Below, one piece after another: positions 1 through 6,511 of a stretch of 6,771 bases of DNA (within the stretch, counting starts at the first letter, position 1; each line of letters begins with the position of its first letter). A program made the translations under genes and the position numbers. This stretch comes from Paraspadella gotoi (taxonomy: Eukaryota > Animalia > Chaetognatha), in NCBI GenBank assembly GCA_051294375.1, contig JBJCIZ010000995.1, forward strand, positions 41,371-48,141, read 5' to 3'. The notes beneath the pieces were generated by a model. The model made no database searches, was not told the origin of the DNA, and worked only from the letters and a program-made list of their open reading frames with translations.

Positions 1-157
1 ATAGAGCCATATTAGAAATTTTTTGTCCATTGAAAGTATTATTAAAAATGTCTAAATATTTGTTTGAGCATGTACTCGCTCTAAATTTTTGACTCACCCT
101 ATTGAGTGCGGCGACCCCTACTAGTATGGTGGACTTAAATCCACCAATCGTTCATCA

Positions 158-230
158 GCGGCCATTGGTGCCGGAGGCAAGTCATTCACCTCCCAACCCA
201 AAGGTCCTGGGTTCTAGCCCAGTGGCTGCC
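158..230 (+). other. tRNA-like sequence (tRNA pseudogene or SINE head)
   Basis: 73 nt. Acceptor stem GCGGCCA (158-164) pairs with TGGCTGC (223-229). T-arm CTGGG/CCCAG around TTCTAG (B-box-like GGTTCTAGCC), A-box-like TGGTGCCGGAGG, variable loop AGGTC. The anticodon stem around CTCCCAA does not pair and the T loop is 6 nt, so this is not a normal tRNA. Confidence 0.7.
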
Positions 231-231
231 T

Positions 232-307
232 AGCAGTTAAGAGGGACGGGGCGCTTAACCCGCCTGTAACATAATGTTACAGCCTGATCTGAAGCTCAGG
301 GACTGCT
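232..307 (+). ncRNA. Putative twister ribozyme, type P5 (copy 1, behind the tRNA-like head)
   Basis: P5 AGCAGT(232-237)/ACTGCT(302-307); TAA; P2' GAGG; GA; T1 CGGG; minimal P1 GCGCT; T^AA (256-258); P2 CCC; T2 GC; P3 CTGTAACAT-A-ATGTTACAG (264-282); P4 CCTGA/TCAGG closing the loop TCTGAAGC (twister L4 pattern UNNNAAGC). T1 contains two G-U pairs. Confidence 0.75.
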
Positions 308-834: not shown

Positions 835-1074
835 TTAAACATAGGTTTCGCGATCAACTAATGAAACAAAACTAATGGACCTATAAATATTATTGTTATT
901 ATTATTACGAAAAAAAAGTAAAGATCTGAGAATTTTTTTTTTACATACAATTAATAAGATCATGAAAATCATGCAAATCATGCAAATCACGCAAATGAGG
1001 ATAATGAGCAATAAATGTTCACGCGTGTTATTCCCAGAGGTCACCGGTTCAACAGTAGTAATTGGACTGCTCAT
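835..1074 (-). CDS. 3' part of a putative host terminal exon (stalk, transmembrane helix, cytoplasmic tail), separated from its 5' part by the transposon
   Basis: S/T-rich stretch, a ~24-residue hydrophobic run LLLIILICVICMICMIFMILLIVC, then KKK, and C-terminus ETYV* (TAA at 835-837). Removing the element and one TSD joins it in frame to 6548-6512. Confidence 0.6.
   Translation of the reverse strand: MSSPITTVEPVTSGNNTREHLLLIILICVICMICMIFMILLIVCKKKILRSLLFFRNNNNNNIYRSISFVSLVDRETYV
959..996 (+). repeat. 9-bp tandem repeat (ATCATGCAA) x ~4.2
   Basis: ATCATGAAA ATCATGCAA ATCATGCAA ATCACGCAA AT. Encodes the ICV/ICM/ICM/IFM run of the putative TM helix on the minus strand. Confidence 0.85.
1067..1074 (+). 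repeat. Left target-site duplication CTGCTCAT
   Basis: Identical to 6504-6511 and directly abuts the TIR. Confidence 0.95.
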
Positions 1075-1949
1075 TAGACCTTGCCATATATGAAAAGTTT
1101 TGAAATCAAAAAACGAGTATTGTGTAAATGGTGCCCATACATCATATGAATTTTTTGAACATTTTTTTTCAAAAAAAAATTTACAGTAAATGCTGCCAAC
1201 TTTGAAAAAATGTAAAAAATGGTAAAAATGGACTTTTTGCTAAATATCTTTAAAAGCTTTATTGCTAGAGGGACGAAGCGTAAAAAATTGAATATGTTAC
1301 ATACCTCGCATTATAAATTAAATATTTTTTTCTATGAAAAATTTTTTTTAAAACCAATTGTTTTGGGCAATTTTTGATAAATTTTAAAAAAATGATATTT
1401 TTAACAAATTTTCGTGAAATATTTTTTAAAAAAAATTATAGCGAAATGAATAAAGAGATAATTGCCTTTGTTTTGCTTAAAGAATTTTTAAAAAAGGATT
1501 ATCGGTTAAAGAGTTATAATTTTTTTAAATTAAAAAAAAAATACTTGCCTTAATAATTATTTTTATTTAATAGGTTTGAACTAGGCTTAAAGGGAAAATG
1601 GAATGCACTTTTTTCAGAGTAAATAAAAAAATAGTACATTCTGATTTGACAATGAGTAACTTTAATATCTTGTCTCACCAGGACATTAATTTTTTTTTTT
1701 AAATTTATCATTTTATAATAGGATTATGGCTTTTAAATAAGGTTGTTTTTTTCTATATAAAATAAAAAAAAAAATTGACAAAAGCGATTAAATGATTAAA
1801 AATTGATAAAATGAGACAAAAAGGGTAAAATTAATGAAAGTTAAGCAACTGAGAGAAGATTTGCTTGCTTCTTGTCGGTCAAGAAAAAACAATGGTCATC
1901 AATGGTGCCAAAGAAAGAAAACTAGTTATTCCATTTTTTTCATTCATTA
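1075..1949 (+). repeat. Left terminal inverted repeat (~875 bp)
   Basis: Reverse-complement match to 5604-6503 from the terminus to ...CCATTTTTTTCATTCATTA (1949). Differences are mostly homopolymer lengths, a few substitutions and one 19-nt indel. Confidence 0.95.
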
Positions 1950-2021
1950 TCAATCAATATAAAGAGTCGATTTAGTTTTGATATCTACTGAATATTTTTA
2001 TTGTTATATTTGGAGTTAATA

Positions 2022-2255
2022 ATGTCTTCTATTTATTTGATAAAAACTCTTATAAAAAATCTTCCTTTTTCCAAACTACCGACAAACGCCGATATATTGA
2101 GATATGTCCTATATCTAACTCATGTGGGTATATGTTTACCTAAAGCCATTGATACATGTACAAGAAATATTCTTTCCATCTGGGAAACGGCAGGACTAAT
2201 TCAATGCACCAAACATTTGGTTACCATAAAAAAAGATGTGCTAAAGATATACAAA
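2022..2255 (+). CDS. Transposase exon 1
   Basis: ATG at 2022 within the 2001..2324 ORF (MSSIYLIK...KIYK). Donor AAA|GTAAG at 2256. Confidence 0.75.
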
Positions 2256-2517
2256 GTAAGGATCAATATTACATTATTTAATATGAATATTATATATTCT
2301 AATGTTTTTATTTACATTATGTAACTTGCATAATTTTATTCAATTTTTTGTGCTAAATAAAGAAATGAAATAATGAGGATTTCATGATTTACAACAAGAA
2401 TGTTCATACATGAAAGTCAAAACACGTCTGTTTTTATGTCAAAATATTATTATTCTTAAACTATAAATTTTTTTTCATTTTGGAATTTTACAGATTGTTT
2501 AACTTCACATTTTATAG

Positions 2518-2799
2518 GACTATCGAATTTTGCAAAAGTATCCAAAAATCAAGCAAAACTCCAATTCTTTTAAACAAAAAGAACTTAAGTTTAAAAAAAA
2601 TCTTTCTAAGGGATATTTGGCAATAAATAAAAAAGATATTCAAAAATTGTGTGGAAAAAAAATGGAATTTTTAAATGATCAAATATATGGAAGTCGAAAA
2701 TTTTCAATTGATAAGTCGCATGAAAAAAAAAATGAAATGAATAGATCAGATACATTGGATAAATTTATTGACGAAGGAGCTGGCGGAGATACTCTGAAG
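2518..2799 (+). CDS. Transposase exon 2
   Basis: Acceptor TTTTATAG|GAC, in frame with the 2530 ORF. Donor AAG|GTTTTT at 2800. Confidence 0.75.
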
Positions 2800-2960
2800 G
2801 TTTTTTGTTTAACCTTTTTTAAAATTAATAAGATTATATATAAATAGTTTTGATATTTTATTGAAAGTTAAAATTTAAGAATCAATGTAATTCATTTTAA
2901 AAATTATTTAATTTACTTGTTTTAGCTTGTGATTAATTACCTATTACATTTTATTTTAAG

Positions 2961-3507
2961 GATATGGCGGAGCCAATTATTGAAGAAATGGATTGTAATG
3001 TAGATAATGATCCCGATTTTTTCGTAAAAAAATCAAATAATATTTATATTGATTTGAAAGCACCTAGAGATATTTTATCTTCTAATAAAATACTAGAGGA
3101 AGTGGTTAGGTGCGGCATTAGTTTAAGCCAATGTATTACTTTGGTTGTAGCATTTATAGTAACATGCGGAGGAGATCCTGCTGATTTTATTTTATCCATG
3201 AATACTGAAAGCAGGCGAAAATATAATTTTATGAAAAGTAAAGCAAATACCATAAAAAAATCGTTTAATGCTCCAGATTGTTTTGCTCTTAAATGGGATG
3301 AAAAAAAAATAGGGGAGCATGAAAGATGCAGCATTATTATCTAAGGCGATAACACCTGTATGCACATCGGATCGCCAATATTACCTTCAGGAAAGGCACA
3401 GCATAAAACTGAAAAAATTATTGAGACGTGTCAGAAGTGGGGAATAACAAATACCCATTGTACTGCACCAACTTTTTTAGGTTTTGACACATGTTCTTCC
3501 AATTCGG
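2961..3507 (+). CDS. Transposase exon 3 (both catalytic Asp; contains in-frame TAA at 3342-3344)
   Basis: Acceptor TTTTAAG|GAT. The frame stays open for 54 codons after the TAA (GDNTCMHIG...GFDTCSSNS). Donor G|GTAACT at 3508. Confidence 0.85.
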
Positions 3508-3832
3508 GTAACTAATATCTTCTAAAACATTGATATAAAACTTTTTTTTAATTTTTGGTCGCAGTTAGTGTTTTCCAATGGTAATGACCGTGCTCCTATA
3601 CCAGATCTAAAATCTATAATTTTTAAACTCTTTCTAAATATTAAATTACAAAACGAAAGGAAGGATCCAATACAAAAAATGAACATCTTAAATATAATTT
3701 ACCAACACCCGCACAGTATCATTGGGACACACTGTATATTTTTGAAATTTTAAAATTTTTTACCAAGAATTAAAAATTAATCTTTACTTTATTCATATAA
3801 TATATAATTTTTATATTGGTTGTACCAATTTC

Positions 3833-3866
3833 ATGTCATTATATATGTCATTATATATGTCATTAT
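3833..3866 (+). repeat. 12-bp tandem repeat (ATGTCATTATAT) x ~2.8
   Basis: Directly visible, immediately 5' of twister copy 2. Confidence 0.9.
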
Positions 3867-3926
3867 CTTGTAAGAGTGATGGAGGCCTTAAACCACCAAA
3901 GCCTGTCCAAAGTCAGGGGCAAGATA
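3864..3926 (+). ncRNA. Putative twister ribozyme, type P5 (copy 2, transposase intron 3)
   Basis: P5 TATCTTG/CAAGATA; TAA; P2' GAGT; GA; T1 TGGA(3880-3883) pairs perfectly with TCCA(3906-3909); GGCCT; T^AA (3889-3891); P2 ACC; T2 AC pairs with GT(3912-3913); mini-P3 CAAAG; P4 CCTG/CAGG closing TCCAAAGT. Confidence 0.75.
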
Positions 3927-4001
3927 GCTTATTTATTGAATGAATGGATAATTTTTAAATTGGTTGTACCAATTTCATATATATTTTCTTTTTAAAATAA
4001 G

Positions 4002-4336
4002 GTCAGTTTAATGGAACCGCAAAAAAAATAGAAGAGTATTTTCATCTTAAAATGGGATGGTTAGGTTGTTGGAGACATATTATGGAAATAATCGCATCAG
4101 TTTTATTCAAAAAATATTTATCTACTTCAAAATCTCCAGAGGATGGTTTTTGCAAAATAGTAAAAAATTGGTTAAATCCAAATCTAAAAAATTTTTCATC
4201 AAAATATAAGCCATTATTGCCTTCCTTCCTATCAATAATAAATAAAAAAAGAGAAGCTATGAAAGACTTTTTAAAAAAGACTTTATATGAAGAACAACCG
4301 AGGAAAGACTATAAGGAATTAATCCAACTGAGTTTG
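4002..4336 (+). CDS. Transposase exon 4 (CxxH motif)
   Basis: Acceptor ATAAG|GT completes a Gly codon and reads QFNGTAKKIEEYFHLKMGWLGCWRH. Donor TTG|GTAATT at 4337. Confidence 0.85.
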
Positions 4337-4495
4337 GTAATTATAGATGTATTAAAAATTTATAGTAAAATAGTGTAAAATATTTTGATTCAGTGTGATA
4401 ATTTGTAATCCCTTTTTATTCTGACTGCTAATATATTAAAACTAATTATTAGTTGAATGTAAGAGAGTCTTGATTGAAATGTTGCAGTGACCTGC

Positions 4496-4613
4496 TATGT
4501 CATTATCTTGTAAGAGAGATGGAGGCCTTAGGTCATCAAAGCCTGTCCAAAGTCAGGGGAAAGAGATTTATTAAATGAATAAATAACTTTTATATTGATT
4601 GTACTAATTTCAT
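4496..4613 (+). repeat. ~120-bp diverged copy of 3856-3978
   Basis: Runs from TATGTCATTATCTTGTAAGAG to ...TTGTAC(C/T)AATTTCAT in both intron 3 and intron 4. Confidence 0.9.
4504..4566 (+). ncRNA. Degenerate twister ribozyme copy (copy 3, transposase intron 4)
   Basis: Ungapped homolog of copy 2, 640 bp downstream. T1, P4 and L4 are intact, but TAA is TAG (4529-4531), P2 has a G-A mismatch and a wobble, T2 is weakened (AT/GT) and P5 has two mismatches. Confidence 0.55.
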
Positions 4614-4647
4614 TTATAAATTTATTTTAATATTTTTTTTTTCCAAG

Positions 4648-5418
4648 GTCTTGTTAGGAGAAAACCTAAATAAACCTTTAAAAAAAATTGGAGCTATTAG
4701 CAACGCAAGGTGGATGTCCAAAATTATTTGTTTATTTAAAGCTGCCTTATTAATTGATCATGTTCCTTTTGCAAAAAGTGAAAAACAAACAATATTGAAA
4801 ATGACAGATTTTTTTTTATGTATTTATCTTTATCAGTGGTACAGCTGGAAAAAGGCGGCTGATGCCCCTTTCAATTCTTTGAAACTTATAAAAGACTTAA
4901 CAGAGTGGATGCAAATTGACAAGCCATTAGCTGAAACTGCTTTATTACGTTTTCAAAAACACACATGGTACCTTTGTGCGGAATTAACTCCTTTTTCTTT
5001 ATGTTCGGATTTAGTTAGTGACAGTGAAAAATATGAGATGATATTTGAGATATTAAAATATAAAAATTGTGAATTATCTCTCGGACGTCCTAAAATGGAC
5101 ATAGTTACATCTGAATCAACCCTCTCTTCAAGAATAACTTACAACTCTTTATTTATTTTTCAACGTCAAAACATATCATTAGATTGGATGTTGTATCCTG
5201 TAGAGCAATGGAAAAATTTTGAAAGTTATAAAAGATTTAAATATATCATTAGTAATGTATCAATTATAAATGATAGCTGTGAAAGGGCTGTGCAAACAAC
5301 AAATTTATTAGCCAAAAGATATGAAAATGACGATCACCTGAAAGATGCATTATTAGTTGTAAATGAAGCACGAAAAAACAGGAAAAAAACCATTAAGAAA
5401 GTTTTTGCTCTGAAATGA
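4648..5418 (+). CDS. Transposase exon 5 (RW motif, catalytic Glu)
   Basis: Acceptor T-tract-CCAAG|GTC, in frame with the 4651..5418 ORF. Ends with TGA and has a basic C-terminal tail (RKNRKKTIKK, possible NLS). Confidence 0.9.
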   Translation, partial: VLLGENLNKPLKKIGAISNARWMSKIICLFKAALLIDHVPFAKSEKQTILKMTDFFLCIYLYQWYSWKKAADAPFNSLKLIKDLTEWMQIDKPLAETALLRFQKHTWYLCAELTPFSLCSDLVSDSEKYEMIFEILKYKNCELSLGRPKMDIVTSESTLSSRITYNSLFIFQRQNISLDWMLYPVEQWKNFESYKRFKYIISNVSIINDSCERAVQTTNLLAKRYENDDHLKDALLVVNEARKNRKKTIKKVFALK

Positions 5419-5603
5419 ATATTATTTTTAATTCATCTTTATTTTTATTCATTTATATCTTGTTTCGTTGACGAATTTATCAATAAGTATTAAAACCATT
5501 ATTTATGTACACCCGCCTTACTAAAACTGAATATAAAAATTAGGCATTTTACTTAACACAAATTATAATTCAACTCAGTTTTGGAGAACCAGCTTGATAA
5601 AGG

Positions 5604-6503
5604 TAATGAATGAAAAAAATGGAATAACTAGTTTTCTTTCTTTGGCACCATTGATGACCATTGTTTTTTCTTGACCGACAAGAAGCAAGCAAATCTTCTC
5701 TCAGTTGCTTAACTTTCATTAATTTACCCTTTTTGTCTAATTTTTATCAATTTTTAATCATTTAATCGCCTTTTGTCAATTTTTCTTTTTATTTTATATA
5801 GAAAAAAAACAACCTTATTTAAAAGCCATAATCCTATTATAAAATGATAAATTTAAAAAAAAAAATTAATGTCCTGGAGAGACAAGATATTAAAGTTACT
5901 CATTGTCAAATCAGAATGTACTATTTTTTTATTTACTCTGAGAAAAGTGCATTCCCATTTTCCCTTAAGCCTAGTTCAAACCTATTAAATAAAAATAATT
6001 ATTAAGGCAAGTATTTTTTTTTTAATTTAAAAAAATTATAACTCTTTAACCGATAATCCTTTTTTAAAAATTCTTTAAGCAAAACAAAGGCAATTATCTC
6101 TTTATTCATTTCGCCATATTTTTTTAAAAAAATATTTCACGAAAATTGTTAAAAATATCATTTTTTTAAAAATTTATCAAAAATTGCCCAAAACAATTGG
6201 TTTTAAAAAAAATTTTTCATAGAAAAAAAATTATTTAATTTATAATGCGAGGTATGTAACATATTCAATTTTTTACGCTCTACAAGATAGTTTGGGTTTC
6301 GTCCCTCTAGCAATAAAGCTTTTAAAGATATTTAGCAAAAAGTCCATTTTTTACCATTTTTTTACATTTTTTTCAAAGTTGGCAGCATTTACTGTAAATT
6401 TTTTTTTGAAAAAAAATGTTCAAAAAATTCATATGATGTATGGGCACCATTTACACAATACTCGTTTTTTGATTTCAAAACTTTTCATATATGGCAAGGT
6501 CTA
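5604..6503 (-). repeat. Right terminal inverted repeat (~900 bp)
   Basis: Starts TAATGAATGAAAAAAATGGAATAACTAG and mirrors the left TIR. Carries an extra 19 nt (6280-6298). Confidence 0.95.
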
Positions 6504-6511
6504 CTGCTCAT
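6504..6511 (+). repeat. Right target-site duplication CTGCTCAT
   Basis: Identical to 1067-1074 and directly abuts the TIR. Confidence 0.95.

What the first reader, a model, noticed from the sequence alone, without database searches (positions are those of the whole stretch)
3864..3926. Intact-looking twister ribozyme on the sense strand inside a DNA-transposase intron
Seen: intron 3 carries a compact 63-nt P5-type twister with a perfect T1 pseudoknot (TGGA/TCCA), T2 (AC/GT), P4 and a 7-bp P5. The predicted cut at 3889/3890 is about 110 nt upstream of the acceptor. Known: eukaryotic self-cleaving ribozymes are mostly tied to retroelements, not class II transposons. Inference: cleavage competing with splicing could cut the pre-mRNA between the exon with both catalytic Asp and the exons with CxxH and Glu, limiting transposase output. 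It may instead be a neutral passenger insertion.
Basis: partly seen in the sequence, partly recalled or inferred. Interest (0 to 1): 0.85.

Follow-up and report, generated by a model that had tools for sequence, protein, structure and literature searches.

The report
Dimer-type twister repeat riding a transposon
The 'twister' self-cutting-RNA motif in this jumping gene's intron is one copy of a short, very abundant genomic repeat that also sits, decayed, in the next intron; its loop-less palindromic stem is predicted to make it cut best when two copies pair, so it is likely a hitch-hiking mobile RNA rather than a built-in brake on the transposase, whose gene here carries a premature stop.

Summary
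The twister motif is real (Rfam Twister-P5 25.8 bits, E 0.034; strict descriptor hit in 1 of 5000 shuffles; the same T1/T2 letters occur in six complete environmental twisters). It is not fully intact: P1 is the loop-less palindrome AGGCCU and P2 has 2 of 3 pairs. (1) A second copy lies in intron 4, decayed at A2, P2, T2 and P5. (2) Both are copies of a ~160-nt high-copy dispersed repeat: 13,413 contigs of one run lie on the stretch, with summed depth in the millions against 38-50 on the exons. (3) The hATm-like transposase (8-bp TSD, ~880-bp TIRs) has a stop at codon 300, upstream of the ribozyme. Family copies decay on paired and unpaired positions alike. A selected regulatory role in this transposon is therefore unlikely. 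The unusual object is the repeat: a protein-less, retrozyme-like element whose twister is predicted to fold as a strand-swapped dimer through its palindrome, as dimeric hammerheads do. I found no report of this for twister in the searched library, and no look-alike among the scan's earlier findings. Cleavage, expression and mobility are untested.

The parts
1075..6503 (+). hAT-superfamily, hATm-like DNA transposon (host element)
   Evidence: TAGACC...GGTCTA ends and 8-bp TSD; same terminal hexamer as hATm-1_DiA and hATm-6_CC in PMC6004678 supplement file 6
1067..1074 (+). left target-site duplication CTGCTCAT
6504..6511 (+). right target-site duplication CTGCTCAT
1075..1949 (+). left terminal inverted repeat, ~875 bp
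   Evidence: 865 of 871 aligned bases identical to the right TIR, 33 gap columns
5604..6503 (-). right terminal inverted repeat, ~900 bp
2022..5418 (+). predicted transposase gene, exons 2022-2255, 2518-2799, 2961-3507, 4002-4336, 4648-5418 (722 codons plus stop); splicing inferred, not seen in RNA
   Evidence: all four introns GT..AG and frame kept; exon 5 is 51% identical to unnamed P0001
3342..3344 (+). premature stop TAA (codon 300) between the WD and FDT motifs, upstream of the ribozyme
   Evidence: not checked against reads (outside the stretches laid)
3788..3836 (+). 3'-end fragment of the repeat, directly upstream of copy 1 (partial-tandem layout)
   Evidence: D1 family; alignment; high depth from about 3800
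3833..3866 (+). 12-bp unit x2.8 at the junction, standing where the repeat's 5' part would be
3856..3979 (+). repeat copy 1 (intron 3), close to the family majority (private letters at 3938 and 3958)
3864..3926 (+). type-P5 twister motif: P5, P2 (2 of 3), G3878/A3879, T1, P1 palindrome, U3889^A3890 A3891, T2, P4, L4
3883..3888 (+). loop-less palindromic P1 AGGCCU; predicted 6-bp intermolecular duplex (-9.1 kcal/mol)
3929..3975 (+). two 3' tail hairpins (3929-3951, 3957-3975); family matches end at 3975-3979
   Evidence: loose ends
4460..4614 (+). repeat copy 2 (intron 4), including the family's 5' part (about 4460-4495); twister 4504-4566 decayed (UAA to UAG, P2 broken, T2 wobble, P5 cut to 4 inner pairs, 5-nt deletion)

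Best explanation
The motif is the twister core of a short (about 160 nt or more), protein-less, high-copy dispersed repeat that sits twice, in sense orientation, in introns 3 and 4 of a stop-codon-broken hATm-like DNA transposon, and it is likely a passenger there; the repeat likely spreads through RNA like a retrozyme, and its twister is predicted to cut mainly as a strand-swapped dimer. Steps. (1) Shown: twister letters and pairings, two copies, high abundance, low-copy host transposon, stop codon. (2) Predicted: P1 has no loop, so two RNAs pair through AGGCCU and each active site is built from the 5' half (P5a, P2b, GAUGG) of one copy and the 3' half (UAA, T2, P4, L4, P5b) of the other. (3) Inferred by analogy with dimeric hammerheads: tandem transcripts are cut to unit length and circularised, while lone units mostly escape cutting and are reverse-transcribed by a borrowed, possibly Penelope-type, enzyme; this would explain why copies keep the cut site intact in their middle. 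(4) Inferred: in this pre-mRNA copy 1 cuts weakly and copy 2 not at all, so any effect on splicing is incidental.
For: Summed contig depth is 2.5-3.8 million over the twister against 37.7-50 over exons in run X2, with 13,413 contigs laid; X5, X7 and X9 show the same contrast. 242, 114 and 103 contigs leave the repeat at 3979, 3978 and 3955; those at 3978-3979 run into flanks with about 0.4 agreement. Copy 1 differs from the family majority at 2 of 124 places; copy 2 carries the other 13 of 15 mismatches and a 5-nt gap, so the two insertions look to be of different age. Transition shares on 11 paired core G/C positions (median 1.6%) and 11 other G/C positions (median 1.9%) do not differ, p=0.55. 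The homodimer minimum-energy fold holds the palindrome duplex (P=1.00), both P4 and swapped P5, with ddG -9.9 kcal/mol against -2.7 to -5.4 for five complete twisters; the monomer has P(P4)=0.07 against 0.92-1.00. Precedent: a 1-bp helix III with a palindromic tetraloop and dimer-boosted cleavage in axolotl retrozymes (PMC7229834); the dimer-gating rationale (PMC4209133); 42-44% of Xenopus retrozyme copies overlap introns (10.64898/2026.07.22.740005).
Against: No cleavage, expression, circle or partner reverse transcriptase was observed. P1 is dispensable and P1/P2 flaws are tolerated in natural twisters (PMC5408937; PMC11662667), so a monomer may cut without a partner. The low monomer P(P4) is partly an artefact, because ViennaRNA cannot hold T1 and P4 together. 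One non-palindromic order of the four inner P1 letters gave an equal dimer gain (ddG -11.4) and one palindromic order only -5.1, so the energy gain is not specific to palindromes. The palindrome could come from one slip-deletion in a hairpin with GGCC arms such as L016's P1. No compensatory P1 change could be linked (3884 G>A 2.2% and 3887 C>T 2.9% are unphased). Head-to-tail joints are rare (3834 to 4462 in 2 contigs), whereas retrozymes are defined by tandem arrays. Two sense copies at nearly the same distance from consecutive acceptors (cut 112 and 118 nt upstream) are unexplained; the chance of one further copy in these introns is about 0.004-0.17 under an assumed 300-Mb genome. Summed depth is, by the tool's own warning, no copy number.
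Confidence: 0.5

Rival explanations
1. Same passenger repeat, but the twister cuts well as a monomer (1-bp P1 with a GGCC tetraloop). Copy 1 then severs the transposase pre-mRNA 112 nt before the acceptor and lowers spliced mRNA as an unselected side effect.
For: Catalytic G, A1, A2, T1, T2 and P4 are all present in copy 1; imperfections in P1 and P2 did not lower the cleaved fraction in natural twisters (PMC11662667); an intronic ribozyme can lower mRNA (CPEB3, PMC10274809 abstract).
Against: An element that cuts itself efficiently in the middle should not spread as intact lone units unless the template is circular; P1 and P2 are both weak here; the competing monomer fold pairs the P1 GGC with the P4 5' strand.
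Confidence: 0.23
2. The family's twister is crippled: loss of the P1 loop and a P2 pair disabled it in the founder copy, and the repeat amplified afterwards as a SINE-like or DNA-level repeat that carries a fossil ribozyme.
For: Below the Rfam gathering score; even decay over paired and unpaired positions; a one-step deletion route to the palindrome (L016); few tandem joints.
Against: The majority sequence keeps all pseudoknot pairs and the conserved A and G letters; the six commonest family variants between 3882 and 3958 (3915, 3919, 3931, 3942, 3943, 3947) are unpaired or wobble-compatible, a weak hint of constraint on source copies.
Confidence: 0.22
3. One reading: the transposon keeps the ribozyme as an evolved brake, with cleavage competing with splicing between the exon holding both aspartates and the exons holding CxxH and the glutamate.
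For: Two sense copies at similar distances from consecutive acceptors; copy 1 keeps the catalytic core; CPEB3 precedent.
Against: The motif is a genome-wide repeat and the transposon interior is low-copy; copy 2 is decayed at A2; the ORF has a stop upstream of the ribozyme; copy 1 is close to the repeat majority, so it looks like a recent insertion, not a long-kept part.
Confidence: 0.05

Closest known systems
Type-P5 twister ribozyme (Rfam RF02684, clan CL00120)
   Same: Strand order, G-A of L1, UAA cut site, T1, T2, 4-bp P4, 10-nt L4; the GAUGG / GUCCAAAGUC / AC variant is shared letter for letter with L001, L013, L015, L016, L026 and L030, which score 40.5-48.3 bits.
   Different: P1 is a loop-less palindrome instead of a 5-6-bp hairpin; P2 has 2 of 3 pairs; score below gathering; sits in a high-copy repeat of an intron-bearing, AT-rich genome.
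Metazoan non-LTR retrozymes and Penelope-like pLTR hammerheads that cleave as dimers (PMC7229834, PMC4209133, 10.64898/2026.07.22.740005)
   Same: Short, low-GC, protein-less, high-copy unit with an internal self-cleaving motif whose short stem is a 1-bp helix plus palindromic tetraloop; lone copies dispersed, often intronic; partial-tandem layout at copy 1.
   Different: The ribozyme is a twister, not a type I hammerhead; tandem arrays, circular RNA and a Penelope partner are not shown here.
Twister T-variants at the 5' end of Perere-3 / RTE non-LTR retrotransposons (PMC8501958; unpublished remark in PMC7761336)
   Same: Twister with a weak or missing P1, in many copies, tied to a mobile element.
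   Different: There the cut marks the element's 5' boundary and an RT ORF follows; here the order is P5-type, the cut lies inside the unit with family sequence on both sides, and no RT ORF follows in the window.
CPEB3 intronic HDV-like ribozyme (PMC10274809)
   Same: Sense-strand self-cleaving motif in an intron upstream of an exon.
   Different: CPEB3 is a host locus with a tested effect on mRNA; this one is a repeat copy in a broken transposase gene with no test.
hATm family of hAT DNA transposons (PMC6004678)
   Same: 8-bp TSD, long TIRs, TAGACC...GGTCTA ends as in hATm-1_DiA and hATm-6_CC.
   Different: Ends differ from the TAGGGTG consensus; no PF05699 hit; ORF interrupted; no tree built.

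Membership tests
Twister ribozyme, type P5 | Pseudoknots T1 and T2 | tested here: met
   T1 3 of 3 and T2 2 of 2 Watson-Crick in copy 1; copy 2 has one U.G in T2
Twister ribozyme, type P5 | Conserved general-base G, cut-site A1, A2 and L4 adenines | tested here: met
   G3878, A3890, A3891, A3879/A3910, A3911 in copy 1; copy 2 has A2 to G
Twister ribozyme, type P5 | Stem P4 | tested here: met
   4 of 4 pairs in both copies
Twister ribozyme, type P5 | Stem P2 | tested here: inconclusive
   2 of 3 pairs in copy 1, 1 wobble in copy 2; flaws tolerated in PMC11662667
Twister ribozyme, type P5 | Stem P1 closed as a hairpin | tested here: not met
   AGGCCU without loop, 1 bp at most in a monomer; P1 is reported dispensable
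Twister ribozyme, type P5 | Termini in P5 | tested here: met
   7-bp P5 closes the motif
Twister ribozyme, type P5 | Rfam RF02684 gathering score 37.6 | tested here: not met
   25.8 bits, E 0.034; copy 2 not listed at E up to 1
Twister ribozyme, type P5 | Site-specific self-cleavage | not testable with these tools
   needs an assay
Non-LTR retrozyme | Type I hammerhead in each unit | tested here: not met
   the Rfam scan of the window lists only Twister-P5
Non-LTR retrozyme | Short (150-450 bp), low-GC, non-coding unit in high copy | tested here: met
   about 160 nt seen, 5' limit uncertain; depth and contig counts
Non-LTR retrozyme | Tandem arrays of units | tested here: inconclusive
   end-to-start joint 3834 to 4462 in 2 contigs; partial tandem at copy 1; short contigs cannot show arrays
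Non-LTR retrozyme | Unit-length linear and circular RNA | not testable with these tools
   only contigs available
Non-LTR retrozyme | Kinship with the pLTR of a Penelope-like element | not testable with these tools
   no genome held
Twister T-variant of RTE/Perere-3 | Cut site at the element's 5' boundary, RT ORF downstream | tested here: not met
   depth 2.5 M at 3865-3889 and 3.2 M at 3890-3914, no loose-end pile at the cut among the rows shown; the downstream ORF is the transposase
hATm (hAT superfamily) | 8-9-bp TSD | tested here: met
   definition in PMC6004678
hATm (hAT superfamily) | TAG-starting termini and long TIRs | tested here: met
   TAGACC/GGTCTA as in two listed members; 3 of 7 letters match the TAGGGTG consensus
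hATm (hAT superfamily) | C-terminal PF05699 domain | tested here: not met
   no such Pfam hit for six exon pieces or for P0001
hATm (hAT superfamily) | Transposase falls in the hATm clade | not tested
   only one unnamed homologue found; the representatives search did not finish

The most novel reading that the evidence does not exclude
A natural dimer-gated twister: a retrozyme-like mobile RNA family built on a type-P5 twister whose loop-less palindromic P1 forces two units to swap strands before they cut, the twister counterpart of the double hammerhead, amplified to thousands of copies in one genome.
Probability: 0.3. Interest if true: 0.8.

Novelty: new variant of a known kind. Interest (0 to 1): 0.58.

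Why it matters
If the dimer model holds, a second, unrelated ribozyme class has reached the same solution as dimeric hammerheads: stay quiet as a lone unit, cut in tandem transcripts. It would also extend retrozyme-like elements beyond hammerheads and give a 63-nt, directly testable concentration-dependent ribozyme. If not, the case still shows that a ribozyme inside a DNA-transposase intron can be a repeat passenger, and that copy number must be checked before a regulatory role is proposed.

Tried and rejected
No whole genome is held, so family copies could not be aligned; only per-position tables of laid contigs were available. No RNA holder was listed; X9 is only guessed to be RNA and covers the repeat but not the exons, which I take as no evidence on expression or splicing. 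A loose twister descriptor was useless (673 of 3000 shuffles) and the folding z-scores are unremarkable (-0.49, -0.55, -1.51). Pattern scans did not find the family outside the organism: 1 viral and 33 metagenome loci, of which 6 of 34 pass the strict descriptor. Four short-P1 scans gave 65 loci, 0 of 65 with a Watson-Crick palindromic P1; these exact patterns cover only two T1/T2 variants and mostly prokaryotic data. A copy 1/copy 2 dimer inside the pre-mRNA was considered and set aside: one site would carry UAG and the other a broken P2, and the cofold gain is only -6.4 kcal/mol. MITE, Helitron and Helentron readings of the repeat: no terminal inverted repeat or CTRR end was seen by eye in the two copies (end rules recalled, not computed). 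Protein identity: no Pfam or PDB match; 0, 1 and 0 hits in three homologue searches; no viral locus; the Atlas gave no answer; the representatives search was still queued. The first splice model had three boundaries off by one and was corrected. No tRNA in the window. Roth 2014 and Lunse 2017 are not held; PMC8782182 passages added nothing.

Full report
Observation. Pairings computed from the window: P5 7 of 7, P4 4 of 4, T2 2 of 2, T1 3 Watson-Crick pairs plus A3879.A3910, cut triplet UAA at 3889-3891, 112 nt before the acceptor. Rfam lists one match in the window, Twister-P5 at 3875-3917, 25.8 bits, E 0.034, below the gathering score of 37.6. That model does not score pseudoknots, so T1 and T2 are extra evidence: both differ from the Rfam consensus by changes on both sides. 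A strict descriptor hits only this site in the window and 1 of 5000 shuffles; a loose one does not discriminate (673 of 3000). Pattern scans returned 34 loci; 6 of 34 pass the strict descriptor, and of the 9 of these loci that I gave to Rfam, the same 6 score 40.5-48.3 bits. They carry the same T1/T2/L4 letters with longer P1 hairpins. They were picked by a pattern taken from the window, so they show that these letters occur in complete twisters, not how rare they are. The window's motif departs from them in two places: P1 is the loop-less palindrome AGGCCU and P2 has an A.C mismatch.

Host element. The transposon spans 1075-6503, with an 8-bp TSD and TIRs of about 875 and 900 bp, 865 of 871 aligned bases identical. 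PMC6004678 (passages; supplement search) defines hATm by 8-9-bp TSDs and TAG-starting ends and lists two members with the same TAGACC/GGTCTA ends. Five exons with GT..AG introns give 722 codons with one internal stop at codon 300, between the WD and FDT motifs. The roles of WD, FDT, CWRH and NDSCER as the catalytic D, D, CxxH and E are recalled, from no call. No Pfam or PDB match was found; one unnamed homologue is 51% identical to exon 5. I file the element as hATm-like, without a tree.

A second copy of the motif lies in intron 4 (4496-4564, 91% identical), followed by the same 3' tail, and a third piece of the tail lies just upstream of copy 1. Copy 2 has UAG at the cut site, a broken P2, a wobble in T2 and a shortened P5. 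In PMC11662667 (sections 32 and 34 read; supplements not read) changes at A2 nearly abolish activity, while flaws in P1, P2 and P4 are tolerated. So copy 2 is predicted dead and copy 1 is a plausible ribozyme.

The motif is a high-copy repeat. Contigs of four runs (three samples at most) were laid on 3400-4750 and of one run on 3790-4518. In X2, which may be the source sample, 13,413 contigs are laid; summed depth is 2.5-3.8 million over the twister, 0.8-0.95 million over 4465-4514, and 37.7-50 on the long contigs over the unique intron and exon sequence. X5, X7 and X9 show the same contrast. The tool warns that summed depth is no copy number. As a rough bound, dividing by the depth of about 82 seen for several unique-flank copies, and by 1 to 31 overlapping contigs per copy, gives about 1,000 to 46,000 copies (for the lower bound). 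A direct count: 242, 114 and 103 contigs leave the stretch at 3979, 3978 and 3955, those at 3978-3979 into flanks with about 0.4 agreement. The transposon's own interior lies on long contigs with no other letters over the part laid (records 1, 7, 8) at about half the depth of most unique-flank copies (68-88, one at 48). It therefore looks like a single, one-haplotype insertion; pieces of it also occur in a second sample (X5, X7). The unit is at least about 160 nt: a 5' part seen only in copy 2 (from about 4460), the twister, and two hairpins ending at 3975-3979. Its true 5' limit is not settled.

Conservation. One search found 46 differences at 1% or more and showed 40. Most are G>A or C>T at 1-3%. 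Eleven paired G/C positions in T1, T2, P2 and P4 (median 1.6%) do not differ from 11 other G/C positions (median 1.9%), p=0.55. Left out of that test: 3919 (23%), the three listed P1 positions (1.3-2.9%), the window-private 3938, all transversion rows, and 3886 and 3912, which were not listed. Dispersed copies thus decay without regard to structure. The six commonest variants are unpaired or wobble-compatible, a weak hint that source copies keep the fold. Of 15 mismatches between the two window copies, 2 are private to copy 1 and 13 to copy 2, so copy 1 looks recent and copy 2 older.

Mechanism. A unit that cuts itself in the middle cannot easily spread as intact lone copies, yet coverage runs on across the cut site. 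Hammerhead retroelements solve this with a stem too short to form alone: a 1-bp helix with a palindromic tetraloop that works as a dimer (PMC7229834 passages; PMC4209133 passages, which also state the rationale of cutting in multimers and not in monomers; PMC6765202 passages and part 1 of section 11). The P1 here has that same form. ViennaRNA gives a homodimer with the palindrome duplex, both P4 stems and swapped P5, at ddG -9.9 kcal/mol against -2.7 to -5.4 for five complete twisters, and a monomer in which P4 is mostly lost. Against this: the model cannot hold pseudoknots; the permutation control was not clean (one non-palindrome gained -11.4, one palindrome only -5.1); P1 is reported dispensable (PMC5408937, parts 1-2 of 7); a single slip-deletion in a hairpin with GGCC arms would give such a palindrome without selection; and tandem joints are few. 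My odds: passenger copy of a high-copy repeat about 0.9; the whole model, with RNA-based spread and mainly dimeric cleavage, about 0.5; strict dimer gating about 0.3.

It has a precedent in CPEB3 (PMC10274809, abstract only), and the two sense copies at 112 and 118 nt from consecutive acceptors remain unexplained (chance of a further copy about 0.004-0.17 under an assumed genome size). But the ORF is broken upstream of the ribozyme, the second copy has decayed, the first looks recent, and intronic positions are common for such passengers (42-44% of Xenopus retrozyme copies, though depleted after normalising; 10.64898/2026.07.22.740005, part 1 of 5 and passages). I give a selected role 0.05.

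Comparison and novelty. It works like a dimeric-hammerhead retrozyme but is not a member, since it has no hammerhead. It differs from the twister T-variants of Perere-3/RTE (PMC8501958 passages; remark in PMC7761336), whose cut marks the 5' boundary of an RT-coding element. Seven literature searches (listings, plus the passages named above and PMC10085705 passages) showed no natural dimer-gated twister, no twister-based retrozyme and no twister in a DNA-transposase intron; the only twister dimer met was a crystal artefact. Roth 2014 and Lunse 2017 could not be read, and the candidate tables in the supplements of Roth 2014 and PMC11662667 may hold similar short-P1 motifs. The scan's earlier findings hold no look-alike sequence and nothing on a palindromic-P1 twister. 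Verdict: real motif, passenger in this transposon, new variant of a known kind, interest 0.58.

Noticed in passing
L038 79-178 (-) and L041 60-159 (+): Two P1-type twisters abut head to tail in phage contigs, each 37-42 bits against RF03160, below its gathering score of 67.2.
   Followed up: partly
L013 252-307 and 568-619; L015 92-143 and 379-434: Pairs of P5-type twisters about 300 nt apart on the same strand in metagenome contigs.
   Followed up: no
P0001 residues 1-13 and 204-270: Similarity to exon 5 starts exactly where exon 5 starts, after a Q, and a 67-residue insertion follows; both look like introns read through, which would put an intron at the intron-4 position in a 51%-identical relative. 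DNA not seen.
   Followed up: no
window 95-101: CACCCTA, the published right-end motif of hATm elements, in the left flank; possibly the end of another element.
   Followed up: no
window 959-996: 9-bp tandem repeat, 4.2 copies.
   Followed up: no
window 170-235: GC-rich stretch that looks tRNA-derived by eye; ARAGORN and Rfam call nothing there.
   Followed up: partly
window 3927-3949 (laid contigs): Some family contigs carry extra GC-rich inserts beginning TGTGGACG after P5 or in the tail (table 5c), suggesting subfamilies or a nested element.
   Followed up: no
window 1075-1949 and 5604-6503: TIRs are 99% identical over about 870 bp while the ORF is broken, suggesting recent movement in trans or homogenisation of the arms.
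   Followed up: no
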